A stretch of DNA of 64,000 nucleotides from a virus (Duplodnaviria; Caudoviricetes): IMG/VR virus record IMGVR_UViG_3300028364_000013; one strand, written 5' to 3'. Of this stretch, positions 31,945 through 62,010 are shown in pieces. The position numbers were made by a program, and so were the translations under genes. Each line of letters opens with the position of its first letter. Position 1 is the first letter of the stretch. The notes beneath the pieces are model-generated. The model was given only the letters and a program-made list of their open reading frames with translations. It ran no database searches and was not told the origin of the DNA.

Positions 31945-32020
31945 CTGCTCAGGAAGGCTTCGAACCTCCAAAAACTCCACATTCAAAGTGTGGCGACTTT
32001 ACCAATTTGTCCACTGAGCA
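31945..32020 (-). tRNA. tRNA-Gln(UUG)
   Basis: TGCTCAG/CTGAGCA acceptor, CCACA-CTTTGAA-TGTGG, TTCGAAG T loop. Confidence 0.9.
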
Positions 32021-32026
32021 ATTTAG

Positions 32027-32100
32027 TTGTAAGAGAAGGCTTCGAACCCTCAAATTCTCGATTCAGAGTCGAGTGACTTTACCAGTTTGTCTATCCTACA
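32027..32100 (-). tRNA. tRNA-Gln(CUG)
   Basis: CTCGA-CTCTGAA-TCGAG anticodon arm, full cloverleaf. Confidence 0.9.
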
Positions 32101-32166
32101 ATATCGCACACATTACTAATATCCCAACCCCTGCAGAGGTTGTCGTTCATAAAGCATATGCATACT

Positions 32167-32252
32167 TGGTTGTACAGGTAGGGCTCGAACCTACACGCCT
32201 TTTGGGCACCCGCTTCAAAGGCGGGCGAATCTGCCAGTTTCTCCACTGTACA
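32167..32252 (-). tRNA. tRNA with Gln anticodon UUG and a Leu-like long variable arm
   Basis: CCCGC-CTTTGAA-GCGGG, variable arm TGCCCAAAAGGCGT, A73, encoded CCA. Confidence 0.85.
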
Positions 32253-32293
32253 ATATTACACTTTACTATCAATGGTCAATAGTAAAGTGTTTG

Positions 32294-32364
32294 TTTCGGG
32301 GAGAAGATTCGAACTTCTATGGTCACTGTCAAAAAGTGAAATCCTGCCATTAGACGACCCCGAA
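32294..32364 (-). tRNA. tRNA-Gln(UUG)
   Basis: TTCGGGG/CCCCGAA acceptor, TCACT-TTTTGAC-AGTGA. Confidence 0.85.
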
Positions 32365-32375
32365 ATATTAAACAC

Positions 32376-32407
32376 AAAAAAAAGCCTGAACGTTCAGTCC
32401 AGGCTTT
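32376..32407 (-). terminator. attenuator terminator of the Gln leader
   Basis: AAAGCCTGGAC-TGAAC-GTTCAGGCTTT, 8-U tract. Confidence 0.9.
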
Positions 32408-32436
32408 AAATATTTTTGTTTTATTAACTAAAATGT

Positions 32437-32517
32437 TCAGGCACCACCAGGACTGTCCTCTTTCGAAGATTGTTGCTGCTGTTGCTGCTGTACGTTTATG
32501 TTAATTACTGTTTTCAT
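32437..32517 (-). CDS. poly-Gln leader peptide MKTVININVQQQQQQQSSKEDSPGGA
   Basis: 26 codons with CAG CAG CAA CAG CAG CAA CAA; terminator 30 nt downstream, then four Gln-anticodon tRNAs. Confidence 0.9.
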   Translation of the reverse strand: MKTVININVQQQQQQQSSKEDSPGGA

Positions 32518-32577
32518 TACTTTTAAATAGTATTCTTTTTTTGTTTACCAATAATCAGCGTGGTAATCCGCTATTTG

Positions 32578-32659
32578 TGACCCAGGTCGGAGTCGAACCG
32601 ACACGTCTTGCGACACACGCCCCTTAAACGTGCGTGTCTACCAATTCCACCACTGGGCC
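32578..32659 (-). tRNA. tRNA-Leu(AAG)
   Basis: Class II cloverleaf, CACGT-TTAAGGG-GCGTG, A73. Confidence 0.88.
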
Positions 32660-32763
32660 AATTTAACCATAACTTAGTAAAGTGCCTCTACCGTTCTACT
32701 GTCGAAGTTTGTTCGGGTGTTTACTCGCCTTGATAAGGACTGTCGATTGTTATAATTAATTTC

Positions 32764-32789
32764 TTATACGCAAATGTAATACTTTTGTT
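32764..32789 (-). promoter_or_regulatory. ECF-type promoter of the Leu(AAG)-Gln tRNA unit
   Basis: TGAAAC-N16-CGTATAA with embedded TACATTTG. Confidence 0.8.
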
Positions 32790-32865
32790 TCAATTATTCA
32801 ACTCTTTTTTTAATTATTTTTGTCGTAAGCAATAGGGTTCAGAAATTTTTAATATATTTATTGAT

Positions 32866-33786
32866 ATGAACAAAGAATCTAAAACAGAAAAGTTTATTCA
32901 AAAAGCAATTTGTGCTCATGTAGATAGATATGACTATTCTCTATCTAAATATTCAAATTCTAAAATTAAAGTTATAATTATATGCTCAAAGCATGGTCAG
33001 TTTAGTGTAACTCCAGATAATCATATAAATAAAAAATCTGGGTGCCCTAAATGCAATGGTGGGGTTAGATTATCTATCAATGAATTCATTGAGCAATCTA
33101 ACAAATCTCACAATAGCAAGTATGATTATTCTTTAGTAGAATATAAAAATAACGCCACTAAAGTGACAATAATATGCCCAGAGCATGGAAAATTTAAACA
33201 GAGGCCTCAAGACCACATGAACAAACTTGGATGCTCTAAATGTGGCATTAAAAAAAGAGCTAATTCAAGAACTTCAAATGCAGAAGAATTTATTAAAAAA
33301 GCAATTTATACTCATGGAGACAAATATGATTATTCAAATGTTGAGTATAAAAAATCAAACTTAAATGTAACAATAATATGTAATCAACATGGTGAATTTC
33401 AACAAAAACCAAATGACCACCTTAGCAATAAAAATGGCTGTCCTATCTGTTGTGAATCTAAAGGAGAAATTGCAATAAGAAATTTCTTAACAGAAAATTC
33501 AATAAAATTTATACCTCAAAAAAGATTCAAAGATTGTAAAGACAAAAGAACACTTCCTTTTGATTTTTATTTGCCAAAATTAAATCTTTGCATAGAATAT
33601 GATGGCATTCAGCATTTTAATAAAAAAAACAGATACTATTCAGATGACAGAAAGAAAAAAGATGAAATCAAAAATCAATATTGCACAGGCATAAATGATA
33701 AACCTAAAATTTTAAGAATATCTTACCTTGAAATTGATGATATTAATCAAATTCTAACAAACTCTGTCAAACGACAAAAACAATAA
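32866..33786 (+). CDS. homing endonuclease with DUF723-like repeats and a Vsr/DUF559-like nuclease domain
   Basis: Three YDYS...ICxxHG.F repeats, SKGE, LPFDFYLP, CIEYDGIQH. Confidence 0.8.
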   Translation: MNKESKTEKFIQKAICAHVDRYDYSLSKYSNSKIKVIIICSKHGQFSVTPDNHINKKSGCPKCNGGVRLSINEFIEQSNKSHNSKYDYSLVEYKNNATKVTIICPEHGKFKQRPQDHMNKLGCSKCGIKKRANSRTSNAEEFIKKAIYTHGDKYDYSNVEYKKSNLNVTIICNQHGEFQQKPNDHLSNKNGCPICCESKGEIAIRNFLTENSIKFIPQKRFKDCKDKRTLPFDFYLPKLNLCIEYDGIQHFNKKNRYYSDDRKKKDEIKNQYCTGINDKPKILRISYLEIDDINQILTNSVKRQKQ

Positions 33787-33796
33787 ATCAAAGAAC

Positions 33797-34045
33797 TTAA
33801 AATAGATTTCTCAAAAAACTTTTTAGTGAGTTGAATCTATTCTTAATATATTTAAAAACGTTAATTTTAGCTACAAAGAAGTATGCTCCAAAAAACGAAG
33901 CTGACAATAGGTAGAAAATAGACATAGTAGTCCAATAATCTCCCGTCCATTTCATCACAACTGCCGTTGCAGCATCGAATCCTATTGGACAAAAGAACAT
34001 TCCCATCATTAGGAACATTATACCTATGTTCTTTCTGTTTCTCAT
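33797..34045 (-). CDS. small membrane protein
   Basis: Two hydrophobic segments. Confidence 0.55.
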   Translation of the reverse strand: MRNRKNIGIMFLMMGMFFCPIGFDAATAVVMKWTGDYWTTMSIFYLLSASFFGAYFFVAKINVFKYIKNRFNSLKSFLRNLF

Positions 34046-34124
34046 AATCCCCTATACTGTCTGATTCCATTTAATCAAGTTTTGTTAATAATTTTCCACC
34101 AAAAGTGGACTCTTCTATAAATAG

Positions 34125-34796
34125 TTTAAATTCCTTCAACAAGAATTTGATACAGCTAAAAGCGATGACAAACTACCTTGTCAATGCTCAGTTTGCAAAG
34201 AAACTTTTTATCTAACAAAACACCAAACACAAAGAGTATTAAATCCAAATCAACAAAAAAATGGAAATTTTTGTTCTAACAAATGTAGAGCAAAAAACAA
34301 CACTAAAAAAGAAACAATAAATTGCACAAACTGTGATGAAGAATTTGAAAAACAATATAGCCAAATTAAAAAATCAAAAAACCACTTTTGCTCTCTCTCT
34401 TGTAATGCAACCTACAACAACAAACACAAAACCCACGGCACTCGTAGGTCAAAACTTGAAGTTTGGCTGGAGGAGCAGTTAACCAAGCTTTATCCAAATA
34501 TCCAAATAGACTTCAACAAGAAAAATACTATAGAGTCTGAACTTGACATCTATATACCTTCATTAAACCTTGCTGTTGAGCTCAATGGAATCTTTCACTA
34601 TGAACCTATATACGGAGTTGATAAACTCCAGCAGATTCAAGAGAACGACATCTCCAAATCCAAGGCATGTCATGACTTAAAAATCGACTTATGCACCATC
34701 GACACAAGTGGTCAAAAATACTTCAAAGAATCTACTTCCAAAAAATATCTTGACATCATAAATAATATTATCAAAGAACGCATGTTAACCTCTTAG
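34125..34796 (+). pseudogene. start-less Zn-finger PD-(D/E)XK homing endonuclease (not in ORF track)
   Basis: 224-codon open frame after an in-frame TAG with no upstream ATG; CSVC, FCSNKC, CTNC, FCSLSC, ELDIYIP, VELNGIFHY. Confidence 0.75.
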
Positions 34797-34852
34797 CCAG
34801 CTTTACCTGTTTCCAACAACCGCTACGTGGAAGCGGGTTAACTTTGGTTGTC

Positions 34853-34943
34853 TACTCCTGGTCGGACTCGAACCGACAACGTTTACCTGCATGGGTATCA
34901 GATTTTAAGTCTGATGCGTTTCAACCAATTTCGCCACAGGAGC
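34853..34943 (-). tRNA. tRNA-Leu(UAA)
   Basis: TCAGA-CTTAAAA-TCTGA, long variable arm, A73. Confidence 0.9.
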
Positions 34944-34952
34944 ATTTGTTTG

Positions 34953-35033
34953 TACAGATAGCGAGAGTCGAACTCGCACGCCTCTCGGCCATAGCTTCTA
35001 AGGCTATTGTGTCTACCATTCCACCACATCTGC
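34953..35033 (-). tRNA. tRNA-Leu(UAG)
   Basis: ATAGC-CTTAGAA-GCTAT, long variable arm. Confidence 0.9.
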
Positions 35034-35046
35034 ATGGCGCTGTAGA

Positions 35047-35595
35047 TTAATCTACAGCTTTATATTTTCTAAAAGTCATACTCACTCTTGGGCCACAATC
35101 TCTATCGTGCTTAGGAATCCTGTGCAAATTTGTATCTTGGAATCCTGGAGGCATATAGAATAAAGAACCATTTTCTAACTTTCTCTTATTCTCTTCTGGA
35201 ACTACTCCTTTTTCTCCTTTTAACTTCCACCAAATTTCTCTTTCAGCCCCAAATGATACAACCGCTATCCCATCATTATGGTCAATTGAATGAGAGTCGT
35301 CAGCGTGCCATCCTAATCCATTTCTTGAGTTCATATATAAATTCAAGAAGCAAATATCCAAACTTGTTCCCAACTTTTTATTAACCTTTTCCATTATTTC
35401 CCTAATCGCAGGCAACATTGGTGTTGATTTATAAGTTGGAGCTCCACTGTGGTCTAAGTAAGAGTATTCAATGTCAGAATCTGCCATAAAACACTCTCTT
35501 CTCATCTTCGTCTCATCAATCCAACTAACATCCCTTACCAAGGTGTCAATAAAATCTTCATTGACCAAATCATTTATGTATACTAACTTTTTCAT
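35047..35595 (-). CDS. AlkB-like 2OG-Fe(II) dioxygenase
   Basis: NLY, GWHADD, HRIPK, RVSMTFR. Confidence 0.88.
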   Translation of the reverse strand: MKKLVYINDLVNEDFIDTLVRDVSWIDETKMRRECFMADSDIEYSYLDHSGAPTYKSTPMLPAIREIMEKVNKKLGTSLDICFLNLYMNSRNGLGWHADDSHSIDHNDGIAVVSFGAEREIWWKLKGEKGVVPEENKRKLENGSLFYMPPGFQDTNLHRIPKHDRDCGPRVSMTFRKYKAVD

Positions 35596-35609
35596 TTCAT
35601 TTTTATTTG

Positions 35610-35682
35610 TAACTCCACCCAGATTCGAACTGAGACTTTAACGTTCGTAGCGTTAGGTGCTAATCCATTACACCATGGAGCT
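35610..35682 (-). tRNA. tRNA-Arg(ACG)
   Basis: TAACG-CTACGAA-CGTTA. Confidence 0.9.
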
Positions 35683-35985
35683 ATGAATTTCAAAGTGACA
35701 ATTAGCACAAACCAACATACACTTATCTAATTCTTCTTTTATTTTTTTATCAAACTTATGCGACTTCATTTTACTTAAAGCAAAACCTTTTTCTTTTGGG
35801 TCAAGGTGATGAAACTGTAAAGCTCCAACATATTTATCATATCCACATTTTTCACAACAACCACCTTTGTATTCAACGCATTTAATTTTAAACTTTCTAC
35901 CACGTTCTCTACTCTCTTCTTTATATCCAAGAGCCTCTAAAATTATTGGAAGTGCTGATTCTGTGTAAAATATTCTCGGTTTCAT
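35668..35985 (-). CDS. HNH endonuclease
   Basis: YKGGCCEKCGY, LQFHHLDP, CMLVCANCHFEIH; probable start MKPRIF. Confidence 0.85.
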   Translation of the reverse strand: MKPRIFYTESALPIILEALGYKEESRERGRKFKIKCVEYKGGCCEKCGYDKYVGALQFHHLDPKEKGFALSKMKSHKFDKKIKEELDKCMLVCANCHFEIHSSMV

Positions 35986-36000
35986 ATTTAAAATTTTTTG

Positions 36001-36081
36001 TACAGATGACGAGAGTCGAACTCGCACGCCTTTCGGCACTGGTTTCTAAAACCAGCGTGTCTACCATTCCACCACATCTGC
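36001..36081 (-). tRNA. tRNA-Leu(UAG)
   Basis: CTGGT-TTTAGAA-ACCAG, variable arm TGCCGAAAGGCGT. Confidence 0.92.
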
Positions 36082-36141
36082 ATATTTTTGGATAGTTAGT
36101 CGGAATATTTCCGATTATCCTATCACAATTTTACATTTTTG

Positions 36142-36215
36142 TAGGAGTAGAGGAATTCGAATCCCCGACATCTGACATGTAAAATCAGCGCTCTAACCAA
36201 CTGAGCTATACTCCT
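36142..36215 (-). tRNA. tRNA-Val(UAC)
   Basis: CTGAT-TTTACAT-GTCAG. Confidence 0.9.
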
Positions 36216-36394
36216 ATTTTTTCTAAATTTATAAATTTCATCTTAGGTCAAACCAAGAAGGGCTCGAAATTTAATTTTTAATATATTTTTTAATAAAAAC
36301 TATTAAAAAATATCTTGACATCATAATCAATATTATCAAAGAACGAACATTAAATGCTAAAACCTAAATAATAATTATTTCAAAGAACTTATAG

Positions 36395-36468
36395 TGGAAT
36401 AGGGTGGATTCGAACCGCCAACGCTCACCGCTTCAAGATGACGCTCTACCAATTGGAGCTACTATTCC
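36395..36468 (-). tRNA. tRNA-Phe(GAA)
   Basis: TCATC-TTGAAGC-GGTGA. Confidence 0.88.
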
Positions 36469-36521
36469 ATTTATTTCAATAATTTTCCTTTCGAATACCA
36501 ATGGACGTTTCCATAGGGCAC

Positions 36522-36554
36522 AAAAAAAGCCCGAACAATTATGTTCGGGCTTTT
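36522..36554 (-). terminator. attenuator terminator of the Leu/Phe leader
   Basis: AAAAGCCCGAACA-TAAT-TGTTCGGGC followed by 7 U. Confidence 0.9.
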
Positions 36555-36584
36555 AAAATATCTTGTGTTATATAATTTACATCA

Positions 36585-36689
36585 TCACACTAAAGACATA
36601 TCACGTCCGAACTTTTGTCTACTAAAGACAAACAGTAACTGCAAGAATTGCAGTGATAACTGACGTAATATGTTGTTAATGTTTTTCAT
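36585..36689 (-). CDS. Leu/Phe-rich leader peptide MKNINNILRQLSLQFLQLLFVFSRQKFGRDMSLV
   Basis: 7 Leu, 4 Phe, 3 Arg, 2 Val in 34 codons; between promoter 36730 and the terminator. Confidence 0.8.
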   Translation of the reverse strand: MKNINNILRQLSLQFLQLLFVFSRQKFGRDMSLV

Positions 36690-36729
36690 GTTATTTCTAA
36701 ATATACTAAAATTTTGTTTTCTCGTTTTA

Positions 36730-36755
36730 TTATACGCAAATATAATACTTTTGTT
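36730..36755 (-). promoter_or_regulatory. ECF-type promoter of the Phe/Val/Leu/Arg tRNA unit
   Basis: TGAAAC-N16-CGTATAA with embedded TATATTTG; nearly identical to 32764..32789. Confidence 0.8.
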
Positions 36756-36821
36756 TCAATAAAACCTAATCTTTTTTAGATAAAATTAAAATTAATTTAT
36801 AATCACTTGATTGTTAGCGCT

Positions 36822-37304: not shown

Positions 37305-37370
37305 GATAAAAGTACCTTTTCTATAAATACAAAAAAAAACCCGACACTTATGTACCAGGTTTTTAAAATT

Positions 37371-51791: not shown

Positions 51792-53219
51792 TTAGTATTT
51801 CCTTTTTGAAGGGTCGTCATCAGCCATCCTAACCACTTGTGGTGTGAATGTACCAAGAATATCAATCAAGTTGTTTTGCGCTTCCATTACTTTCGTAATA
51901 TCTTTATAAGCATATGGAGCCTCATCGAGACCGCCACCAACAAGTGTTACCTTGTTATCTTTAAGAAGCTTAGTAACTGAGCTTTGAGTAAACGAGTTTC
52001 TCGCCACCTTTCTTGACATAGCTCTACCAGCACCGTGAGAAGCTGAAGATATTGAGTCAACAACACCTCTTCCTCTAACAATGAACCCTGGAGAAACCAT
52101 AGAACCTGGGATTATACCAAGGACACCTTTTCCAGCAGGAGTTGCTCCCTTACGGTGAACAATAACCTCTTTACCATCAATGATTTCCTTCCAAGCAAAG
52201 TTGTGGTGATTTTCAATCTTAGCCACTGGGTTTAACTTTAGCTCTTTGGTAATTCTTCTGTGAATCTCGTTGTGACAAGCTTGCGCATAATCACCAGCCA
52301 TATTCATAGCTATCCAGTATTCCACACCAGCTTCCGAATTCATATCAAGCCACGCAAGGTGTTGAGCTGCCTTTGGAAGAGGTGTTGTGTTCATAGCAAT
52401 TTCATGATACTTGTTGGCAAGTGTAGCACCGAACCCTCTTGAACCAGAGTGAGTTAATACACCAACATATTCTCCAACCTCAAGACCGAAGTCGTTAGTT
52501 GGGTCAGTTATCTTAACTATACCAAAGTCCACAAAGTGATTTCCACCTCCTGAAGTTCCAAGTTGTTTCCAAGCTTTGTCCTTAAGAGCTTTTATGTTTG
52601 GTATTTCATTGAACTCTTTCCTATCAAGGAATTCGTGTTCAGTTAATTTACCATCATTCTCAACTCCCATTCCGAAGAATGACTCAGACTTAAGAATGTT
52701 TTCAATCTTATCTCTATTTCCATCAATGTATGAACCACCTTTATCGTAGATGGTCATGTGCATTCTACAACCTATGTCAACACCAACTGCATATGGAATA
52801 ATAGCATTATCTGTAGCAAGGACACCTCCAATTGGAAGTCCATAACCTTGGTGAGCATCTGGCATAAGAGCTGCAGCAACAGAGATTGGCAATCTTGCAG
52901 CAAGTTTTATTTGCTCGTGAGCGCCTTCTTCTATGTTGTCTCCACCATATACAGTATATGGCACACCAACTTCTTTAAGTGGGATTTCAATCACTTCCTC
53001 TTCTACAGCTGGAATCAATAATTCAGCGATTGGCCCAAGAACAATGTCTTCAACATAATCTTCTGGAGTCAAAAGTACAGCCTTTAAAATATCACGTACA
53101 GTATCAAGGTCACTGTGCTTGTAAGCTTTTGTTACAATCTTCAATGTTACACCCATAACTTTACCTGGCTCCATTCCGAACGCCATAAGGTCTTTGCCTG
53201 TTATCTTTAACTTTACCAT
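51792..53219 (-). CDS. rtcB: RtcB RNA ligase
   Basis: MPDAHQGYG, GVDIGC, GTSGGGNHF, HSGSRG, HHN, VHRKGA, SHGAGR, DEAPYAYK. Confidence 0.95.
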   Translation of the reverse strand: MVKLKITGKDLMAFGMEPGKVMGVTLKIVTKAYKHSDLDTVRDILKAVLLTPEDYVEDIVLGPIAELLIPAVEEEVIEIPLKEVGVPYTVYGGDNIEEGAHEQIKLAARLPISVAAALMPDAHQGYGLPIGGVLATDNAIIPYAVGVDIGCRMHMTIYDKGGSYIDGNRDKIENILKSESFFGMGVENDGKLTEHEFLDRKEFNEIPNIKALKDKAWKQLGTSGGGNHFVDFGIVKITDPTNDFGLEVGEYVGVLTHSGSRGFGATLANKYHEIAMNTTPLPKAAQHLAWLDMNSEAGVEYWIAMNMAGDYAQACHNEIHRRITKELKLNPVAKIENHHNFAWKEIIDGKEVIVHRKGATPAGKGVLGIIPGSMVSPGFIVRGRGVVDSISSASHGAGRAMSRKVARNSFTQSSVTKLLKDNKVTLVGGGLDEAPYAYKDITKVMEAQNNLIDILGTFTPQVVRMADDDPSKRKY

Positions 53220-53222
53220 ACT

Positions 53223-55262: not shown

Positions 55263-55319
55263 AATGTTTTTTTCTTCAGAAACCCAATCATCACCGCATG
55301 TGTGGTTGGGTTATTGACA

Positions 55320-55345
55320 TTATACGCAGTAAATCAAAAAATGTT
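55320..55345 (-). promoter_or_regulatory. ECF-sigma-type promoter
   Basis: AGAAC-N16-CGTATAA. Confidence 0.75.
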
Positions 55346-55346
55346 C

Positions 55347-55616: not shown

Positions 55617-55622
55617 TCTACT

Positions 55623-55648
55623 TTATACGTAAAATAATTAAAAATGTT
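55623..55648 (-). promoter_or_regulatory. ECF-sigma-type promoter
   Basis: TGAAAC-N16-CGTATAA, 6 nt above the ATG. Confidence 0.75.
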
Positions 55649-55661
55649 TCAGAGATAGCGG

Positions 55662-56468
55662 TCAGATTGTATAATTTTCATCCCACTCCCTAATTTTCTC
55701 TTTCAATTCTTCTAACGTTATTGAACTATCGTAGTTCTTGACATTATTATCACTATGTTTCATCAACCCGCAGTTTGCTGGGTGAGCTATTATCTCTGGA
55801 GCAACCTTATTAATAAAACCATCTCTTACACTATACGAATGGTCTCTACTGACCCCGTTAATATTATTTCCTTTATTTGATGGGCTGTACCAACCATGTT
55901 GTTCAATCAATGTGAAATTAAATTCTTCTTTAAAATCTCTAACATCAAACTTAAACTCACACGCAGGCCGATAAGCCTCGTAATATTCCATCCTACAATC
56001 GTCACAAATCAACTTATGCTTCTTGGATACTTTAAATTCATCACAATATCTACACTTCTTTTTTCCATTCACTTTTTTGGTTCTTTTTTCTATACTAATT
56101 CCACCTTTCCATCTTGAATTATTTTCTCCACTATTCTTTTTTATTGTTTCATCACTTACTACATGCCCAAAAAGACTTTCTCCTATCTTTTTTTTAGTTT
56201 CATTACTATGAGTACTTCCAAAATTATTAAATGAAGCAGAACAAGAACTTGAACAGAATTTTCTTTTTGATTTAATTAAATCAAAAAAACTTACACCGCA
56301 GTTATTACAACTATATTCTTTATGATTAATGATATTCAACCCTAATCTATAACACCTATTTCTAACACTACTTTTAGTGACCCCTATAACTTGAGCAATA
56401 TCTTCATGTTTTTTACCAATAAGAATTAATTTCCTTAACTCTTCATCCAAATTTTTACTCCATCTCAT
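55662..56468 (-). CDS. putative homing endonuclease (HTH, Zn finger, NUMOD3-like, HNH-like)
   Basis: FCSSSC, HSNETKKKI, NSRWKGG, SRDHSYS...HPANC. Confidence 0.7.
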   Translation of the reverse strand: MRWSKNLDEELRKLILIGKKHEDIAQVIGVTKSSVRNRCYRLGLNIINHKEYSCNNCGVSFFDLIKSKRKFCSSSCSASFNNFGSTHSNETKKKIGESLFGHVVSDETIKKNSGENNSRWKGGISIEKRTKKVNGKKKCRYCDEFKVSKKHKLICDDCRMEYYEAYRPACEFKFDVRDFKEEFNFTLIEQHGWYSPSNKGNNINGVSRDHSYSVRDGFINKVAPEIIAHPANCGLMKHSDNNVKNYDSSITLEELKEKIREWDENYTI

Positions 56469-56523
56469 ATTAATAAATATGATAAAAAAAGCAAAAACAA
56501 GATTTCGAGCCAGTATGATTTTG

Positions 56524-56595
56524 AGACAGCGAAGGGATTCAAACCCTTATAACCACACTTTGCAGGTGCGTACCTTATCAATCGGCCACGCTGTC
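56524..56595 (-). tRNA. tRNA-Cys(GCA)
   Basis: CGCAC-CTGCAAA-GTGTG, U73; D loop TGAT and T loop TTTGAAT. Confidence 0.85.
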
Positions 56596-56608
56596 TTATA
56601 TTTTATTG

Positions 56609-56693
56609 AGGTCAGGGAGGGATTCAAACCCCCGATGGGCTTGCGCCTACAGATTTGCAGTCTGTCGTCTTCAATCACTCGAACCACCCGACC
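56609..56693 (-). tRNA. tRNA-Cys(GCA) with long variable arm
   Basis: ACAGA-CTGCAAA-TCTGT, variable arm GGC-GCAA-GCC, U73. Confidence 0.82.
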
Positions 56694-56712
56694 TTATAAA
56701 GGGGAAAGTCAA

Positions 56713-57384
56713 TTAAGACCTTCCACCTTTACAGATTATATCAGCTGCACAAGTTGCAGCCCAAGAGTTAGGCTTAAACCTTACTCTGTATCCTAATCCC
56801 TCAAGATGCGCTTTTGCAGCAGCATAAACAATGTGGGACCTGTTCTTTGGAATACCTGGAGACTTACCTGCTCTGATAAGTTCTTTTTGCCAAGAAGTCC
56901 AACCAGCATCTGGGTTAATGTCAATATCAATATCAACTAACTTGGTTTGGTTTGACTTGTAACCTTTAGCAACAGCTTCTTCTGGTGTCATCCTCTTGTA
57001 CTTCCCTTCAAGCTCTCTCTCAAAGTATTCTCCAAGTTCGAAAAGCCTTTCGGTTTCATGCCAGATTCTTTGGAAAATAGATGAAGTCAAATTCTTTCTG
57101 TGAAGCTCTTTGTCTTTAACTTTGTTTCCAGTCTTGCTGAATTTAACTTGGTTACCAGAAATAAGCTCTCTATTGAAAATGTAGTGTACACCGTCATTTC
57201 TGTCGTTATCGTAAAACGCTACAACATCTGCATACATAATTTTTCTACCATTTCTTCTTACATCAGAGTCGCATCCAATGTAAACAGTTTCTCCTGGAAA
57301 TTTCTCAATGTGTCCTCTAACGTACTCACCAAGGTCAGCAATTATTTCACCTCCAAATTTCTTAAATACTCTTTCTTCCATCAT
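56713..57384 (-). CDS. RNase H-like protein (DUF458-like)
   Basis: VYIGCDS, IWHET, IDIDIN, KPNSWAATCAAD. Confidence 0.75.
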   Translation of the reverse strand: MMEERVFKKFGGEIIADLGEYVRGHIEKFPGETVYIGCDSDVRRNGRKIMYADVVAFYDNDRNDGVHYIFNRELISGNQVKFSKTGNKVKDKELHRKNLTSSIFQRIWHETERLFELGEYFERELEGKYKRMTPEEAVAKGYKSNQTKLVDIDIDINPDAGWTSWQKELIRAGKSPGIPKNRSHIVYAAAKAHLEGLGYRVRFKPNSWAATCAADIICKGGRS

Positions 57385-57475
57385 TTCTTCTTTTTTTAGT
57401 AGTCCTAAAAAGTTGTCAGTTTTTTCCAGTCTAATTCATCATTATTACTTGTTTTTTGTTTTTAAATTTGCGCAT

Positions 57476-57512
57476 AAAAAAAAGCCCAAACTATTCGAGA
57501 TAGCTTGAGCTT
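57476..57512 (-). terminator. attenuator terminator of the Cys leader
   Basis: AAGCTCAAGCTAT-CTCGA-ATAGTTTGGGCTT, 8-U tract. Confidence 0.85.
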
Positions 57513-57536
57513 AAAATTTCTTTTATTATTATAAAT

Positions 57537-57647
57537 CTACTTCATAACACTCAAACTAACGTTTTTTTTGCAAAACGGACATACCCCTTCCAGGCCGCAA
57601 TCAATCGCTTGCGAAGTTGGTCTCCAATATGTCATGTTAGTTTTCAT
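57537..57647 (-). CDS. Cys-containing leader peptide MKTNMTYWRPTSQAIDCGLEGVCPFCKKNVSLSVMK
   Basis: 36 codons, 3 Cys; terminator 24 nt downstream, then an RNase H-like gene and two tRNA-Cys. Confidence 0.7.
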   Translation of the reverse strand: MKTNMTYWRPTSQAIDCGLEGVCPFCKKNVSLSVMK

Positions 57648-57669
57648 CTGTTTATAAATATATTATTTT

Positions 57670-57945
57670 TTATCCAAGCAGCAATCCGCTCTTTTTTTCT
57701 TGTTTTTTTGCATCTTTCCATTTCCATCCGAGGAAGAATCTGGTACACGCTCTATGAAACCAATTTGGCTTCTTTGTATAGTTGAAGACGATTGAACCTT
57801 CTACTTGGTTGCTTCCTGTTATATCATATCCTCCAACAACTGGTGGTGGAGTGTATATTTTAACATCTGCAACATCAATTGCTTCATCAATTTCTGGCTT
57901 TTTTCTTTCACCAGAATATTCTTGTTCTTCCCAATATATATTCAT
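57670..57945 (-). CDS. hypothetical protein
   Basis: KKPNWFHR...FFLGWKW. Confidence 0.6.
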   Translation of the reverse strand: MNIYWEEQEYSGERKKPEIDEAIDVADVKIYTPPPVVGGYDITGSNQVEGSIVFNYTKKPNWFHRACTRFFLGWKWKDAKKQEKKSGLLLG

Positions 57946-58022
57946 ATTGTAAATATATAAAAATAATATTTAATATCAAATTAATAACCTTTTATTTACG
58001 CAGGGACTTATATTATTAATTG

Positions 58023-58096
58023 TGGGCCCCATCAGACTCGAACTGATAACCTTTTCATTATGAGTGAAATACACTAACCAATTGTGTTAGAGGCCC
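58023..58096 (-). tRNA. tRNA-Ile2(CAU) (or elongator Met)
   Basis: TTTCA-CTCATAA-TGAAA; C4-G69 and C5-G68 (TilS determinants) favour Ile2. Confidence 0.8.
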
Positions 58097-58105
58097 TTAA
58101 ATTTT

Positions 58106-58184
58106 GTCGGGAAGGTGAGATTCGAACTCACATGTAACCAATTACCCTTTCTACAAGATATAAGCTTGAGGGGATACAACCCGA
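58106..58184 (-). ncRNA. rearranged tRNA-like RNA with a UAU anticodon-like loop
   Basis: TCGGG/CCCGA acceptor, canonical T arm, hairpin CAAG-CTTATAT-CTTG, no normal D arm. Confidence 0.65.
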
Positions 58185-58225
58185 TACATATGTCTATTTC
58201 ACTTTCCATTTTATTTATTTTTTTG

Positions 58226-58323
58226 TGGACAATACGAGAATCGAACTCGTATCTCCAGTTTGCGCTATCCTGTGTGGTTGCACTTCATAGCCTTCACCGA
58301 TTTACCAATTAATCTAATTGCCC
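58226..58323 (-). ncRNA. tRNA-Ala-like RNA with an extended anticodon region
   Basis: G3:U70, A73, normal D and T arms, 47 nt instead of about 22 between them. Confidence 0.75.
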
Positions 58324-58328
58324 TTTTG

Positions 58329-58398
58329 TTGGTGTAGAGGGACTCAAACCCCCGACCCCCTGAATTACAGGTGCTCTAATCAACTGAGCTATACACCG
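58329..58398 (-). ncRNA. tRNA-like RNA with a shortened anticodon arm
   Basis: CCTG-TAATT-CAGG (4 bp, 5-nt loop), C1:A72, TGAT/TTTGAG elbow. Confidence 0.7.
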
Positions 58399-58442
58399 AA
58401 CTCTTCAATCGCCTTAAGTCGATTTCCGAGCTACTTAAGTAG

Positions 58443-58525
58443 TAGTGACGGTGGGAATTGAACCCACTTTGTACTTACGTACCCACGTTATCAGCGTGGT
58501 GCCTAAACCATCCAGCCCCGTCACT
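58443..58525 (-). tRNA. tRNA-Ile(GAU) with long variable arm
   Basis: CCACG-CTGATAA-CGTGG, variable arm GTAC-GTAA-GTAC, A73. Confidence 0.82.
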
Positions 58526-58536
58526 ATAAAAACTCT

Positions 58537-58773
58537 TTAGAAGAGTCTTTCTATTTCAATCCAAGTATAGGAATAAACTCCATTTTGAACTGGTATTCTT
58601 TTGCTAATATCCGCTCTTAACACTTTGAACATTGGATACTCTACCAAAAATCTTTCAAGCGCCTCGCTTGGCGTTATCATGTCTCCATCAAAATCAACAA
58701 GCCCGCCAACTACTTCCCACTTGTGTGATTGCCTCCATGTAGTGCAAATACTAAATAAAATATACTCTTCCAT
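58537..58773 (-). CDS. hypothetical protein
   Basis: 78-aa ORF inside the tRNA array. Confidence 0.5.
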   Translation of the reverse strand: MEEYILFSICTTWRQSHKWEVVGGLVDFDGDMITPSEALERFLVEYPMFKVLRADISKRIPVQNGVYSYTWIEIERLF

Positions 58774-58780
58774 TGCTCTA

Positions 58781-59551
58781 TTAATTCTTTACTTCATCTA
58801 AAATATTATATTTTAAACACCATTTTCTAACTGTATTATCAGAAACTGCATACTTATTTCCAACCCTTGTAAAATATTTAAATTTTTTAAAATCATCCAA
58901 TAGAACCATTTTGTTTGGTATTCTGCTTTTTCTTTTACAATTATATTCTTTGCACCACTTTTTAATTACACCCAATGAAACCCCTAAGTGTTTAGATAAT
59001 TCTAAATCACTTTTAAATTTCGAAAATACCAACACAAATTCTTCTTTATTTATTTTTGGTAAAATATTTATTTCACTAATTACCTTTCCAAGTTTTTCAT
59101 ATTCTCTTTTTATTTTATGACATCTTTTATAATTACCACCTTTAGGGGTTAATCCAGTTTGTATTAATGACTTTCTCATATTCCAGTCATTAATCAACAA
59201 ATATTCTAATAATTTTTCATTACTAATTTTTTCTTTTTTTATTTTATTTCTACCCCTCCAATTACTTGTTAAACCATGGCAGTTTGGACATAGACACTCA
59301 AGGTTTGTTTTTTTATTATTTGTATTATCCCCATCAATGTGATTAATTTCCAAAGGTATATTACACCCTTGCCATTTATTTAATTTACATTTTTTACAAG
59401 TTCTTTTATTTTCATATATAATATATTCTCTAATCATATCCCAAGATAAATCATCAAAATTTTTACTTAAAATATATTCTTCACGTTTTTTTCTTTCTTC
59501 TAAATTATATAACTCCTTTTTTTCACTAATTCTTAACCACTGACTTGACAT
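58781..59551 (-). CDS. HNH homing endonuclease
   Basis: LEINHIDGDNTNNKKTNLECLCPNCH; C-terminal HTHs. Confidence 0.88.
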   Translation of the reverse strand: MSSQWLRISEKKELYNLEERKKREEYILSKNFDDLSWDMIREYIIYENKRTCKKCKLNKWQGCNIPLEINHIDGDNTNNKKTNLECLCPNCHGLTSNWRGRNKIKKEKISNEKLLEYLLINDWNMRKSLIQTGLTPKGGNYKRCHKIKREYEKLGKVISEINILPKINKEEFVLVFSKFKSDLELSKHLGVSLGVIKKWCKEYNCKRKSRIPNKMVLLDDFKKFKYFTRVGNKYAVSDNTVRKWCLKYNILDEVKN

Positions 59552-59637
59552 AATATTTGTTTTTTATTATAAATATTATGAAAAAAGTAAAAGTTCGATT
59601 TTTTGTTAAATTAATTCGAACTTTTACTTTAAATTAG

Positions 59638-59710
59638 TCTCCCCGATAGGACTTGAACCTATTCTCTTTCGATTAAAAGTCGAAGGCTTCCCCTGTTAAG
59701 CTACGAGGAG
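59638..59710 (-). tRNA. tRNA-Lys(UUU)
   Basis: TTCGA-CTTTTAA-TCGAA. Confidence 0.88.
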
Positions 59711-59726
59711 GTTTTTAATTCTTTCG

Positions 59727-59798
59727 TGAACCCACCGAGAGTCGAACTCGGTTCCATAGATTAAGAGTCTATAGCATCACCACTAATGCTTTGGGTCC
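59727..59798 (-). tRNA. tRNA-Lys(CUU)
   Basis: ATAGA-CTCTTAA-TCTAT. Confidence 0.88.
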
Positions 59799-59899
59799 AG
59801 AATATGTTTATTATCAAGGCCTGCAACTCTATTGCTTGAGCAAGCCTCTTAACGTTTCTTATATTTCATCTTTTTATATTTCATTTTCTTTCTTTTTTG

Positions 59900-59972
59900 A
59901 GCTGTTGACAGGGGTCGAACCTGCGACATCTTCATTACAAGTGAAGTGCTCTACCAACTGAGCTACAACAGC
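59900..59972 (-). tRNA. tRNA-Thr(UGU)
   Basis: CTTCA-CTTGTAA-TGAAG. Confidence 0.93.
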
Positions 59973-59990
59973 ATATTATTATTTTTCTTG

Positions 59991-60063
59991 AGCTGGAGAT
60001 GGGTCTCGAACCCACAGCCTACTGCTTACAAAACAGTCGCACAACCAATCGTGCTCCTCCAGC
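59991..60063 (-). tRNA. tRNA-Thr(UGU)
   Basis: ACTGT-TTTGTAA-GCAGT. Confidence 0.88.
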
Positions 60064-60069
60064 ATTTTA

Positions 60070-60750
60070 TTACCAAGATTTTCCTTCTTTATAATTTTTT
60101 CTTCTTCTCTTTCTTCTTCTACTATACCTACCATCCCCTTCTGATATAGCTTTCCAACTTTTAGTTAATGCATGATGATTTGGGCATAAAATCTGCAAAT
60201 TATCTACTTTATTATTATCTGGATTACAATCTACATGATGCAACTCCAGCGGTATTTTACCTGAATATTTATTTACCTCTTTCCATCCGCACTCCATGCA
60301 TTTTTCTCCATGTATAGATATAAGATAAGTCTTATAAATTTTGGTATGCTCAGTAGTATATTCTCCTTTTTCTATTTTATCAAAAATCTCTTTTCTTTGA
60401 AATTCTTGTTGACACTTATTATTACAATATTTCTTATTTCCATCTATCTGCTCTTTACAGTTTGTACAATTATTAAACTTTTTTCTTTTTCTATTGTTAT
60501 AACTCACCCCACATGATTTGCAACAAAACTTTTTTGGATTAGACTTATTAACTTCAAACCCACATTTACACTCTAAACAACTCCTATCCTCACTACTTGA
60601 ATTATGTTCTGAAAATTTAACTCCAGATTTATTCATTTTATTCCTAACAGAATCAACACTCCTATTTAATTCTTCAGCTATATGATGAAATCTAAACCCA
60701 TCTATAACAAGCTTTTTAGCTTTTTCAAACTCTTCTTTGCTCCATTTCAT
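60070..60750 (-). CDS. HNH homing endonuclease
   Basis: LELHHVDCNPDNNKVDNLQILCPNHH. Confidence 0.88.
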   Translation of the reverse strand: MKWSKEEFEKAKKLVIDGFRFHHIAEELNRSVDSVRNKMNKSGVKFSEHNSSSEDRSCLECKCGFEVNKSNPKKFCCKSCGVSYNNRKRKKFNNCTNCKEQIDGNKKYCNNKCQQEFQRKEIFDKIEKGEYTTEHTKIYKTYLISIHGEKCMECGWKEVNKYSGKIPLELHHVDCNPDNNKVDNLQILCPNHHALTKSWKAISEGDGRYSRRRKRRRKNYKEGKSW

Positions 60751-60830
60751 ATCTATCTATTTTATAATAAATAGTTAAAAATAATGAGCTTTCAAAATTA
60801 TTCGAAAACTATACCACTTTCATATACCAG

Positions 60831-60904
60831 AGCCTTGTATGGGACTCGAACCCATCTTTCAGACTTACCGAATCTGTACATCAATCCAACAATGCTTACA
60901 AGGC
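60831..60904 (-). tRNA. tRNA-Thr(GGU), atypical C33
   Basis: CAGAT-TCGGTAA-GTCTG. Confidence 0.8.
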
Positions 60905-60930
60905 ATATTTCAAATAACTTTTACTTTTTG

Positions 60931-61016
60931 GGTGAAAGATGGGTTCTGACCCCACGACCTCCCGATTCACAGTCGGGCGCTCTACGACTTTCGTCTCCAG
61001 CTGAGCTACAATCACC
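60931..61016 (-). tRNA. tRNA-His(GUG) with an extra hairpin in the D loop
   Basis: G-1:C73, CCCGA-CTGTGAA-TCGGG, GAC-GAAA-GTC insertion, T loop GTCAGAA. Confidence 0.75.
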
Positions 61017-61053
61017 ATATTAAATTAAAAAGAACTTTTTCTTTTTTTTGTTG

Positions 61054-61126
61054 AGGACCCACCGAGACTCGAACTCGAAATCGCAGATTAACAGTCTGAA
61101 GTGATAACCAATTTCACCATAGGTCC
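61054..61126 (-). tRNA. tRNA-Asn(GUU), atypical U73
   Basis: TCAGA-CTGTTAA-TCTGC. Confidence 0.82.
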
Positions 61127-61136
61127 TTAATTTATT

Positions 61137-61595
61137 TTATTTACTCTTTTCTATTTCTTCATGTATTTCAGCATGACAATTAGAACACACTAAAATACAT
61201 TTATCTAATTCTTTTTTTACTTTTTCCCAAGACCTCGTATAACCTTTGTGACCTATACCAAATTCTTTTTCATTTGGGTTTAAATGATGAAACTCTAAAG
61301 CTCTACTACATTTATTATACCCACACCTTTCACAACAACCACCTTTATACTCAATTGACAATTGCTTAACCTTTTTCCTTCTATTTTGAACTGCTTCAAC
61401 ATTTTTCTTTCTTTTATCTTCTTTTTGAAGGGGTGATAAAGTTCTTTTACTTACATATTCTAACACTGTAGTTTTACTCACTCCAAACTCTTTAGCTACA
61501 ATCCTTGATGATTTTCCAGAATTATACTCTTTTTTAATTAATTTAATTAGTTCTTCACTAATTTTTTTTCCTTTTTTACTTTTTAATTCGTCCAT
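61137..61595 (-). CDS. HNH endonuclease
   Basis: YKGGCCERCGY, LEFHHL, CILVCSNCHAEIH; same family as 35668..35985. Confidence 0.88.
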   Translation of the reverse strand: MDELKSKKGKKISEELIKLIKKEYNSGKSSRIVAKEFGVSKTTVLEYVSKRTLSPLQKEDKRKKNVEAVQNRRKKVKQLSIEYKGGCCERCGYNKCSRALEFHHLNPNEKEFGIGHKGYTRSWEKVKKELDKCILVCSNCHAEIHEEIEKSK

Positions 61596-61649
61596 AATAT
61601 TAACTTTGTTTGTTAAAAAATAGGACTAAATTTTTCAAAGCATCACTTG

Positions 61650-61721
61650 CGACTCCAACGGGGCTCGAACCCATAACAAATGATTAACAGTCAAACGTGA
61701 TACCAATTTCACCATAGAGTC
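61650..61721 (-). tRNA. tRNA-Asn(GUU)
   Basis: Loop CTGTTAA, G73, weak anticodon stem. Confidence 0.8.
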
Positions 61722-61770
61722 ATATTTCAAATTTTAAGATTCTGAACGTTTCTCAAAAACCTTTGGACAC

Positions 61771-61799
61771 AAAAAAAGCCCGACCTATTGGCCGAGCTT
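61771..61799 (-). terminator. attenuator terminator of the Asn/Ile/Thr/Lys/His leader
   Basis: AAGCTCGGCC-AATA-GGTCGGGC followed by 7 U. Confidence 0.9.
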
Positions 61800-61825
61800 C
61801 TGTATATTTTAAATTGTACTTGTGA

Positions 61826-61936
61826 TTAAATTAGTTCATCACTTCCATTTTTGCTTATACATAGCTCGACCATACCATTTTGCTTTTTATTGCAAATCGT
61901 ATTATTAATCGTTGTATGTATATTTAATGAGTACAT
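61826..61936 (-). CDS. leader peptide MYSLNIHTTINNTICNKKQNGMVELCISKNGSDELI
   Basis: 14 of codons 5-20 are N/I/H/T/K; between promoter 61985 and the terminator. Confidence 0.85.
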   Translation of the reverse strand: MYSLNIHTTINNTICNKKQNGMVELCISKNGSDELI

Positions 61937-61984
61937 TGTGTTTCTTTTTTCTAAATAGTAATTAAAAATTCTTTTTTTGTTTTC

Positions 61985-62010
61985 TTCTACGCAAATATAT
62001 AACTTTTGTT
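61985..62010 (-). promoter_or_regulatory. ECF-type promoter of the Asn/His/Thr/Lys/Ile tRNA unit
   Basis: AGAAC-N16-CGTAGAA with embedded TATATTTG. Confidence 0.7.

What the first reader, a model, noticed from the sequence alone, without database searches (positions are those of the whole stretch)
31945..62010. Phage tRNA clusters controlled by cognate leader-peptide attenuators
Seen: four times on the minus strand, a 26-36 codon ORF is followed 24-30 nt later by a strong hairpin with 7-8 U, then by tRNA genes. Each leader is enriched in the amino acids of those tRNAs (Gln; Leu/Phe/Val/Arg; Asn/His/Thr/Lys/Ile; Cys). In each, the distal leader codons carry a near-copy of the terminator 3' arm that can pair with its 5' arm. 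Three of the four units begin at near-identical promoters. Established: this is the architecture of ribosome-mediated attenuation (trp, his, thr, pheST leaders). Inference: the phage senses shortage of specific charged tRNAs, from starvation or host anticodon nucleases, and transcribes only the matching tRNA block. This would also explain why the tRNAs are sorted by amino acid. I know of no description of leader-peptide attenuation of tRNA genes, but could not search the literature.
Basis: partly seen in the sequence, partly recalled or inferred. Interest (0 to 1): 0.96.

Follow-up and report, generated by a model that had tools for sequence, protein, structure and literature searches.

The report
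Codon-matched attenuators gating phage tRNA blocks
A large lake-water phage places a tiny test gene, rich in the codons read by the tRNAs downstream, plus a switchable transcription stop in front of each block of its tRNA genes. It therefore probably makes each tRNA set only when ribosomes decode those codons slowly, a control I could not find described for tRNA genes.

Summary
The window is part of a 195-kb phage record with a T4-like portal, Bacteroidota-type promoters and at least 40 tRNA genes.

- **Units.** Four units lie in the window and two more outside it. Each has a short ORF, then a 22-31 nt spacer, an 11-13 bp hairpin with 7-8 U, and then tRNA genes.
- **Codon match.** Every leader matches its own tRNA block best (best of 720 pairings).
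- **Relatives.** Related phage contigs carry homologous and novel units whose leaders track their own tRNA content. Examples are poly-Gln before Gln, LCLC before Leu+Cys, EESEE before Glu, and Tyr, His or Leu codons that appear together with the matching tRNA.
- **Antiterminator.** In 13 of 21 units the distal leader codons are the best partner of that unit's own terminator 5' arm.
- **Translation.** Indels inside the leaders keep the reading frame.

No expression data exist, so function is inferred. I found no paper describing this. The same scan has noted the idea on other genomes.

- The Cys unit is followed by a protein gene before its tRNAs.
- Antiterminators are weak in units U2, U5 and U6.

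The parts
32767..32807 (-). U1 promoter, Bacteroidota type (TTTG, 19 nt, TAnnTTTGCGTA). It drives tRNA-Leu(AAG) at 32577-32659 and then the Gln leader.
   Evidence: -7 box consensus from PMC7641319.
32437..32517 (-). U1 leader ORF, 26 codons. Seven consecutive Gln codons (CAG/CAA) lie at 32470-32490.
   Evidence: Homologous poly-Gln leaders precede Gln tRNAs in L249 and L250.
32445..32456 (-). U1 antiterminator strand (codons 21-25). It pairs with the terminator 5' arm at -13.9 kcal/mol.
   Evidence: P 0.02; rank 0 of 20.
32373..32407 (-). U1 intrinsic terminator: 11-bp stem and 8 U, ending 12 nt before the first tRNA-Gln.
31944..32364 (-). Four tRNA-Gln genes (UUG x3, CUG x1) gated by U1.
36733..36774 (-). 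U2 promoter, same motif as U1.
36585..36689 (-). U2 leader ORF, 34 codons. Sixteen of 33 residues are Leu/Phe/Val/Arg, concentrated at 36618-36668.
   Evidence: Homologues occur in G003, L250, L251 and L252.
36606..36613 (-). U2 candidate antiterminator strand (GUUCGG). It is weak here (6 bp) but forms 7-8 bp in L251 and L252.
   Evidence: (P 0.13).
36522..36554 (-). U2 intrinsic terminator: 13-bp stem, 7 U, about -20 kcal/mol.
34852..36468 (-). tRNA block gated by U2: Phe, Val, Leu(UAG), Arg(ACG), Leu(UAG), Leu(UAA). HNH and 2OG-oxygenase-like ORFs lie in between.
61988..62029 (-). U3 promoter, same motif as U1.
61826..61936 (-). U3 leader ORF, 36 codons. The run NIHTTINNTICNKK lies at 61883-61924.
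   Evidence: Homologues occur in L237, G003 and L241.
61862..61873 (-). U3 antiterminator strand (codons 22-25). It forms 10 bp with the terminator 5' arm at -18.5 kcal/mol, and alternatively pairs with the regulatory codons (regions 1:2).
   Evidence: (P 0.003).
61771..61801 (-). U3 intrinsic terminator: 12 pairs and 7 U.
58022..61721 (-). tRNA block behind U3: Asn x2, His (Rfam only), Thr x3, Lys x2, a hairpin with U tract at 59581-59630, Ile, two odd tRNA-like genes, and Met. HNH ORFs are interspersed.
57537..57647 (-). U4 leader ORF, 36 codons with Cys codons 17, 23 and 26. The peptide is conserved in relatives (TYW..DC..VCPF).
57548..57561 (-). U4 antiterminator strand (UAGUUUGAG), conserved in five relatives.
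57476..57512 (-). U4 intrinsic terminator: 13 pairs and 8 U.
56523..57384 (-). Genes behind U4: a 223-aa RNaseH-like ORF (56713-57384), then two tRNA-Cys (56608-56693 and 56523-56595).

Best explanation
Each unit is a ribosome-mediated (leader-peptide) transcription attenuator placed between a host-type promoter, or an upstream tRNA, and a block of phage tRNA genes.

**Proposed mechanism.** RNA polymerase transcribes the short leader ORF and a ribosome translates it.
- If the codons read by the downstream tRNAs are decoded quickly, the ribosome runs into the distal codons and covers or unwinds the segment that could pair with the terminator's 5' arm. The terminator hairpin with its U tract then forms and the tRNA block stays silent.
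- If charged tRNA for those codons is scarce, the ribosome stalls on the cognate run a few codons upstream. The distal segment pairs with the 5' arm as an antiterminator, and transcription runs on into the matching tRNA genes.
- The new tRNAs relieve the stall, giving a negative-feedback supply loop per tRNA set.

**Shown from sequence:** the architecture, the cognate codon enrichment, the alternative pairing in most units, coding-type evolution, and covariation with tRNA content in relatives.

**Inferred:** translation, termination efficiency, stall-dependent read-through, and the natural trigger. Candidate triggers are codon-usage mismatch, host tRNA loss during infection, tRNA-cleaving defences, and starvation.
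For: 1. **Six units in one genome share the order** promoter/UTR box, ORF, 22-31 nt, hairpin of -15 to -20 kcal/mol, 7-8 U, tRNAs. Short ORF plus strong terminator with no larger ORF ending there is almost confined to the heads of tRNA blocks.
2. **Leader matches tRNA block.** Each leader fits its own block best. The true pairing is the best of 720 and Fisher P is 1.4e-6 against random short ORFs.
3. **Blind test.** The two units outside the window were found by position alone. One carries RWSRWSSSS before Ser x5, Arg x2, Cys and a weak Trp. The other carries PMGYMGAPAADD before Pro, Asp, Tyr, Gly and Met.
4. **Relatives were reached through the portal, an RNaseH-like gene and a 139-aa gene**. 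Fifteen further units were found. The pairing is the best of 120 in G003 and the best of 5040 over seven units.
5. **Gains go together.**
   - Tyr codons appear with tRNA-Tyr (G003, family 2).
   - Leu-rich LCLC leaders occur only where tRNA-Leu(UAA) precedes the Cys tRNAs.
   - EESEE precedes tRNA-Glu.
   - A His/Thr/Leu/Phe/Cys leader precedes exactly those tRNAs in G004.
6. **Arg codons follow the isoacceptor.** They are AGR 11 of 11 before Arg(UCU/CCU) and CGU 2 of 3 before Arg(ACG).
7. **Antiterminator.** In 13 of 21 units the unit's own upstream region is the best partner of its own 5' arm among 16-20 non-homologous ones. The partner always lies in distal codons, downstream of the cognate run. 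Within G000, Fisher P is 6.5e-4.
8. **Stem conservation.** A double compensatory change keeps the terminator stem between G003 and L241.
9. **Coding-type evolution.** Indels inside the leaders are multiples of three while nearby non-coding indels are not. Synonymous changes occur in the U4 family.
10. **Precedent.** uORF attenuators do respond to knock-down of tRNAs and tRNA synthetases in the whiB7 system (PMC10274678).
Against: - There is no expression, Term-seq or ribosome-profiling data. Only DNA runs hold the phage.
- Antiterminator pairing is weak in G000 units U2, U5 and U6 and in some relatives.
- In U3 the ORF runs 34 nt past the antiterminator strand. A ribosome at the stop codon therefore does not cover it, and termination must rely on kinetic coupling or on 1:2 pairing.
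- The match is imperfect. The U6 leader has three Ala codons but no tRNA-Ala was found in this genome. U3 has Cys and Gln codons without matching tRNAs.
- U4 gates a protein gene first, and its peptide is conserved beyond the Cys codons.
- Two relatives (L251, L252) have Gln tRNAs without any leader.
- About nine tRNA or tRNA-like genes of this genome lie outside the units.
- Transcription-translation coupling in the presumed Bacteroidota host is assumed, not known.
Confidence: 0.8

Rival explanations
1. The units are translation-coupled switches without amino-acid specificity. Any slowing of translation, or simply the timing of infection, opens all the terminators, and the cognate enrichment has little functional weight.
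For: All units share one promoter type, a UTR box and an MKT/MKN start, so they could be co-regulated. Leaders also contain non-cognate codons. The whiB7 uORF responds to many starvations.
Against: Six different leaders match six different tRNA sets in one genome, and the same holds in relatives. Codon runs change together with tRNA content. This is hard to explain without selection for specificity.
Confidence: 0.08
2. Stalling on the leader acts after transcription rather than by antitermination. It might direct RNase processing or protect the precursor, and so control the release of tRNAs.
For: Antiterminators are weak in U2, U5 and U6. U1 and a relative's Glu unit sit behind an upstream tRNA on the same transcript. 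A conserved GAAACGTYCA box follows three terminators.
Against: Strong canonical terminators with U tracts lie exactly between leader and tRNAs. Specific complementarity of the distal codons to the 5' arm is seen in 13 of 21 units.
Confidence: 0.07
3. The small ORFs are ordinary micro-proteins or chance ORFs, and the hairpins are constitutive terminators or insulators. The tRNAs are then made from other promoters or by leaky read-through.
For: AT-rich DNA yields many Asn/Lys/Ile/Leu/Phe-rich ORFs. The U4 peptide is conserved as a peptide. A near-match to a -7 box lies between the U3 terminator and the first tRNA-Asn (own reading).
Against: The permutation and short-ORF nulls argue against chance. 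Runs such as Q7, RWSRWSSSS and GGAGYAPAYDYSYGSGY are not an effect of AT richness. I saw no canonical promoter motif in the 12-78 nt between terminator and first tRNA.
Confidence: 0.05

Closest known systems
Leader-peptide attenuators of amino-acid operons in Proteobacteria (trpL, hisL, leuL, thrL, ilvL, pheL; Rfam RF00513, RF00514, RF00512, RF00506)
   Same: Both have a short ORF with a run of regulatory codons, a distal segment that can pair with the 5' arm of an intrinsic terminator, and a position between the promoter and the regulated genes. Multivalent leaders (thr: Thr/Ile; ilv: Leu/Val/Ile) resemble the mixed leaders here.
   Different: The regulated genes here are tRNA genes, not biosynthetic enzymes, so the product is the sensed molecule itself. 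The units are phage-borne, present in 5-6 paralogous copies per genome, and use Bacteroidota-type promoters. There is no sequence membership: only sub-threshold Rfam matches of 25.5 bits on the terminators.
pheST (pheM leader) attenuator of E. coli (recalled from own knowledge, not tested here)
   Same: Leader-peptide attenuation controls a component of the translation apparatus in response to charging of one tRNA.
   Different: It controls a synthetase, not tRNA genes. It is a single unit and is cellular.
whiB7 uORF attenuator of mycobacteria (PMC10274678)
   Same: A uORF coupled to antitermination whose amino-acid content sets what is sensed. It is activated by knock-down of tRNAs and synthetases.
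   Different: It controls a transcription factor and is Ala-biased but broadly responsive. It is not phage-borne and no tRNA genes lie downstream.
T-box riboswitches
   Same: They couple tRNA status to antitermination before translation-related genes.
   Different: T-boxes bind uncharged tRNA directly through a specifier codon and have no translated ORF. No T-box match was found here.
Phage tRNA clusters as counter-defence or codon supplements (PMC10264068, PMC11464382, PMC11555353)
   Same: These are phage-encoded tRNA sets thought to replace host tRNAs that are scarce or cleaved.
   Different: Of these three I searched only PMC10264068 for control elements; it has no occurrence of attenuator, leader, terminator or promoter. 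The other two I saw only as abstracts, which do not mention such control.

Membership tests
Leader-peptide (ribosome-mediated) transcription attenuators, as a mechanistic class | A short ORF between the promoter and the regulated genes, with a start codon and an in-frame stop | tested here: met
   Frame-preserving indels and synonymous changes occur in relatives.
Leader-peptide (ribosome-mediated) transcription attenuators, as a mechanistic class | Enrichment of the codons whose decoding is being sensed | tested here: met
   best of 720, 120 and 5040 pairings; Fisher P 1.4e-6.
Leader-peptide (ribosome-mediated) transcription attenuators, as a mechanistic class | An intrinsic terminator directly downstream of the leader and upstream of the regulated genes | tested here: met
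Leader-peptide (ribosome-mediated) transcription attenuators, as a mechanistic class | A mutually exclusive antiterminator whose 5' strand is masked by a ribosome that finishes the leader | tested here: inconclusive
   Clear in U1, U3, U4 and in 13 of 21 units overall. Weak in U2, U5 and U6. In U3 the stop codon lies too far downstream to mask it.
Leader-peptide (ribosome-mediated) transcription attenuators, as a mechanistic class | Read-through rises when the cognate charged tRNA is scarce | not testable with these tools
   No RNA data exist for this uncultured phage.
Rfam leader families (Thr_leader, Leu_leader, His_leader, Trp_leader) | A covariance-model score at or above the gathering threshold | tested here: not met
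   The best scores are 25.5 bits against thresholds of 55 and 50, and both fall on the terminator hairpins only.
T-box riboswitch (RF00230) | A match to the T-box model (specifier loop and T-box sequence) | tested here: not met
   No match even at E up to 1 in the regions of the four units.

The most novel reading that the evidence does not exclude
A whole lineage of lake-water phages with T4-like portals carries a modular, codon-addressed tRNA supply controller. Each tRNA block has its own leader 'test strip', so the phage measures in real time which codons the infected cell can no longer decode, for instance after tRNA-cleaving immunity or host tRNA turnover. It then switches on only the matching replacement tRNAs. 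The leaders evolve in step with gain and loss of tRNA genes.
Probability: 0.55. Interest if true: 0.92.

Novelty: new variant of a known kind. Interest (0 to 1): 0.87.

Why it matters
- **Function of phage tRNAs.** This has been debated for decades, with codon supplementation set against escape from tRNA-targeting defences. A built-in sensor that turns each tRNA set on only when its codons are decoded slowly would show that supply is demand-driven. It would also give a direct experimental handle: leader reporters.
- **Reach of a textbook mechanism.** It would extend leader-peptide attenuation to tRNA genes, to viruses and to Bacteroidota-type expression signals.
- **A natural parts set.** The units form a set of orthogonal sensors for the decoding of particular codon sets.
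- **A natural experiment.** The paralogous units and their relatives show how leader codons co-evolve with gene content.

Tried and rejected
- **GenBank phages.** Megablast found only tRNA or HNH fragments and no close relative.
- **IMG/VR, neighbouring genes.** Relatives sought through the 160-aa, 99-aa, 255-aa and 55-aa neighbours were distant or absent and had no tRNA units.
- **IMG/VR, DNA patterns.** Searches for the promoter, the MKTVI start and a conserved tRNA-like arm gave unrelated contigs or only G001. Two unrelated phage loci with tRNA clusters had no such units.
- **Portal-positive fragments.** Ten of them held no tRNAs.
- **Tool limits.** Metagenome records and virus 'relatives' cannot be searched as genomes.
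- **Expression.** No RNA holder is listed for the 5.8-kb stretch. One metatranscriptome shared a few words, but its contigs lie on conserved tRNA parts of other organisms. No conclusion on expression can be drawn.
- **Ribosome-mask folding.** This is illustrative only and gave mixed results for U2, U5 and U6.
- **Known RNA families.** T-box and Rfam leader families are rejected as memberships.
- **Origin of the leader runs.** I considered and dropped the idea that they derive from tRNA gene sequence, because I saw no similarity.
- **Literature.** Seven searches found no description of attenuators before tRNA genes (text checks).


Full report
**What the window is.** It is the reverse strand of positions 108042-172041 of a 195,333-bp IMG/VR virus record that is estimated to be 78% complete.
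- The genome has a T4-type portal and terminase and an intein-split DNA polymerase III alpha. In the window it carries three aminoacyl-tRNA synthetases, RtcB and a PNKP-like ligase.
- ARAGORN finds 40 tRNA genes, all on one strand. Rfam and a relaxed ARAGORN run add about eight more.
- DNA runs that hold the sequence are lake-water and salt-lake metagenomes.
- A strongly conserved promoter motif recurs seven times in canonical form, with two looser matches, on the coding strand. It reads TTTG, 19 nt, TAnnTTTGCGTA, which fits the -33/-7 consensus. PMC7641319 describes the -7 box as conserved in Flavobacterium and Bacteroides. The host is therefore probably a member of Bacteroidota; this is an inference.

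**The observation.**
- Leaders have 26, 34, 36 and 36 codons.
- The spacer from stop codon to hairpin is 24-30 nt.
- The hairpins have 11-13 pairs (-15 to -20 kcal/mol) and are followed by 7-8 U.
- U1, U2 and U3 start at the shared promoter.
- Three details need correction:
  - U1's promoter first transcribes a tRNA-Leu(AAG), and the Gln leader sits behind that tRNA.
  - U4 has no such promoter, and it is followed by a 223-aa RNaseH-like gene before the two tRNA-Cys.
  - U2's antiterminator is short.
- Rfam also shows a tRNA-His(GUG) with a long D-loop insertion at 60931-61015. ARAGORN missed it, and it matches the His codon in the U3 leader.

**A blind test inside the same genome.** Two further promoter copies outside the window head the remaining large tRNA blocks.
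- The first, U5, lies at genome 80165-80257.
  - Its 30-codon leader contains RWSRWSSSS.NR and is followed 23 nt later by a terminator.
  - The block behind it holds a tRNA-Ser-like gene, Ser x4, Cys, Arg(UCU), Arg(CCU) and a weak tRNA-Trp.
- The second, U6, lies at genome 95710-95829.
  - Its 39-codon leader contains PMGYMGAPAADD and is followed by a terminator.
  - The block behind it holds Pro, Asp, Pro, Asp, Tyr, Gly, Gly and Met.

**Statistics within the genome.**
- Scored against proteome composition, each of the six leaders fits its own block better than any other block. The true assignment is the single best of 720.
- Against 726 random short ORFs from all six frames of this AT-rich genome, the leaders fall in the top 0.14-6%. 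By the best 12-residue window, U1, U5 and U6 are at the floor of the test. Fisher P is 1.4e-6.
- A short ORF ending just before a strong terminator, with no larger ORF ending there, is almost restricted to these units.

**How relatives were found.**
- Portal homologues (54-90% identity) led to G003 (154 kb, 40 tRNAs), G001, G002 and G004.
- An alignment of the RNaseH-like protein led to metagenome contigs.
- A 139-aa neighbour led to four more loci.

**What the relatives show.** An objective rule was applied: a terminator within 150 nt upstream of a tRNA, and the longest ATG ORF ending within 70 nt before it. Manual inspection followed where ARAGORN missed the first tRNA. The result was homologous units with conserved logic:
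- **Gln family.** Poly-Gln leaders precede four or five tRNA-Gln in L249 and L250.
- **Leu/Phe/Val/Arg family.** Homologous leaders occur in L250, L251, L252 and G003.
- **Asn family.** Asn/His/Thr/Lys/Ile leaders occur in L237, G003 and L241.
- **Ser family.** Ser/Arg/Trp leaders precede Ser x3, Arg and Trp in G003 and G001.
- **Gly family.** A Gly/Ala/Tyr/Pro/Asp leader precedes Pro, Asp, Tyr, Ala and Gly in G003.

The differences between relatives go the predicted way:
- G003's version of the U2 family gains Tyr codons and has a tRNA-Tyr at the head of the block.
- Leaders of the U4 family become Leu/Cys-rich (LCLC..LCL, LCGLDCLLLPL) exactly where tRNA-Leu(UAA) genes precede the Cys genes.
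- G004 has a leader reading LHTTSLHCLTTF before His, Phe, Cys, Thr and Leu.
- G002 has EESEE before tRNA-Glu.

The pairing is the best of 120 within G003 and the best of 5040 over seven non-homologous units. Homologous units are not independent observations, but the gains and losses are. The element is dispensable: L251 and L252 have Gln tRNAs without a leader.

**The switch.**
- When each unit is folded up to the terminator loop, the 5' arm pairs with a segment in the distal leader codons in U1, U3 and U4.
- Against random genome windows this pairing gives P of 0.02, 0.003 and 0.06. U2, U5 and U6 are not individually significant. Fisher P is 6.5e-4.
- The stronger test is a swap across 21 units whose terminators differ in sequence. 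In 13 units the unit's own upstream region is the best partner of its own arm among 16-20 non-homologous ones. The pairing segment always lies downstream of the cognate run and before or at the stop codon.
- U3 and U2 also show pairing between the regulatory-codon region and the antiterminator strand, which is the classical 1:2 helix.
- Between G003 and L241 the terminator stem keeps pairing through a double compensatory change. The U4 family keeps both UAGUUUGAG and its partner.

**Evidence of translation.**
- In the U4 family all indels inside the ORF are multiples of three, and several differences are synonymous.
- In lake-metagenome variants of U3 the ORF carries -3, -3 and +3, whereas the neighbouring non-coding indels are -1 and -2.
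- Arg codons follow the isoacceptor present: AGR before Arg(UCU/CCU) and mostly CGU before Arg(ACG).

**Known families.**
- No Rfam family reaches its threshold on the units. The Thr_leader and Leu_leader models give 25.5 bits on the terminators only, and there is no T-box match.
- The units therefore work like leader-peptide attenuators without being members of any curated family.
- Seven literature searches found no description of attenuation before tRNA genes, in phages or in cells.
- The whiB7 work shows that a uORF attenuator does fire when tRNAs or synthetases are knocked down.
- Earlier notes of this same scan report the same idea on at least eight other genomes. I treat those notes as leads, not as evidence.

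**Limits.** Nothing here shows RNA ends, ribosome occupancy or regulation. The trigger is unknown. Some units have weak antiterminators, and the codon/tRNA match is imperfect (Ala in U6). I put 0.8 on codon-specific attenuation and 0.55 on the fuller picture of a demand-driven, block-by-block tRNA supply controller.

Noticed in passing
window 34784-34852 (-): Sub-threshold match to the HDV-like ribozyme model RF02682 (35.9 bits against a gathering score of 44, E 4e-4). It lies immediately 3' of tRNA-Leu(UAA) and may be a processing element at the end of the U2 block.
   Followed up: no
window 58226-58323 and 58329-58398 (-); genome 104045-104144 and 104229-104301: tRNA-like genes with odd anticodon regions: a 43-nt insertion, a shortened loop, a 25-nt intron-like insert and a 6-nt loop. 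tRNA-Thr(GGU) at 60830-60904 has C instead of U at position 33.
   Followed up: partly
genome 73284-73356 (outside the window): A tRNA with anticodon CUA, an amber-suppressor type that ARAGORN labels 'Pyl', next to a tRNA-Lys. G003 has one too (L226). The U4 leader and its relatives end in UAG.
   Followed up: no
window 57537-57647 (-) and L233, L235, L237, L238, L239: The U4 leader peptide is conserved as a peptide (TYW..SQAIDC.LEG.VCPF) with synonymous differences, beyond what Cys sensing needs. A peptide-specific role, such as nascent-chain stalling, is possible.
   Followed up: partly
window about 36495-36505, 61745-61755; genome about 95915-95925: A conserved box GAAACGTYCA lies about 20 nt downstream of the terminators of U2, U3 and U6. 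Its function is unknown.
   Followed up: no
window 31211-31879, 35668-36039, 55662-56468, 58781-59551, 60070-60750, 61137-61595 (-); 32866-33786 (+): Homing-endonuclease-like ORFs (HNH, Cys-rich) are interspersed among the tRNA genes. Metagenome variants join the U3 terminator region directly to a tRNA-Thr, skipping 1756 nt.
   Followed up: partly
window 12231-14171, 22811-24352, 26603-28039, 42284-43831, 51792-53219 (-): A translation and tRNA-repair gene set: PNKP-like ligase, GluRS/GlnRS-type, class II Asp/Lys/Asn-type and MetRS-type synthetases, and RtcB. Relatives add Pth2, GatB/YqeY and PPK2. None is preceded by a leader-terminator unit.
   Followed up: partly
genome 80020-80136 (outside the window) and L227: A small ORF lies between the promoter and the U5 leader. 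It contains ..LEALEGWMKQL.. and is conserved in G001 as ..LECLEGWIRQT... Its function is unknown.
   Followed up: no
10-20 nt upstream of each leader ATG (for example window 36695-36706 and 61950-61962): A conserved A/U-rich box (TATTTAGAAA or TATTTATAA) precedes every leader start in this genome and in relatives. It may be a translation-initiation signal in a host that lacks Shine-Dalgarno use.
   Followed up: no
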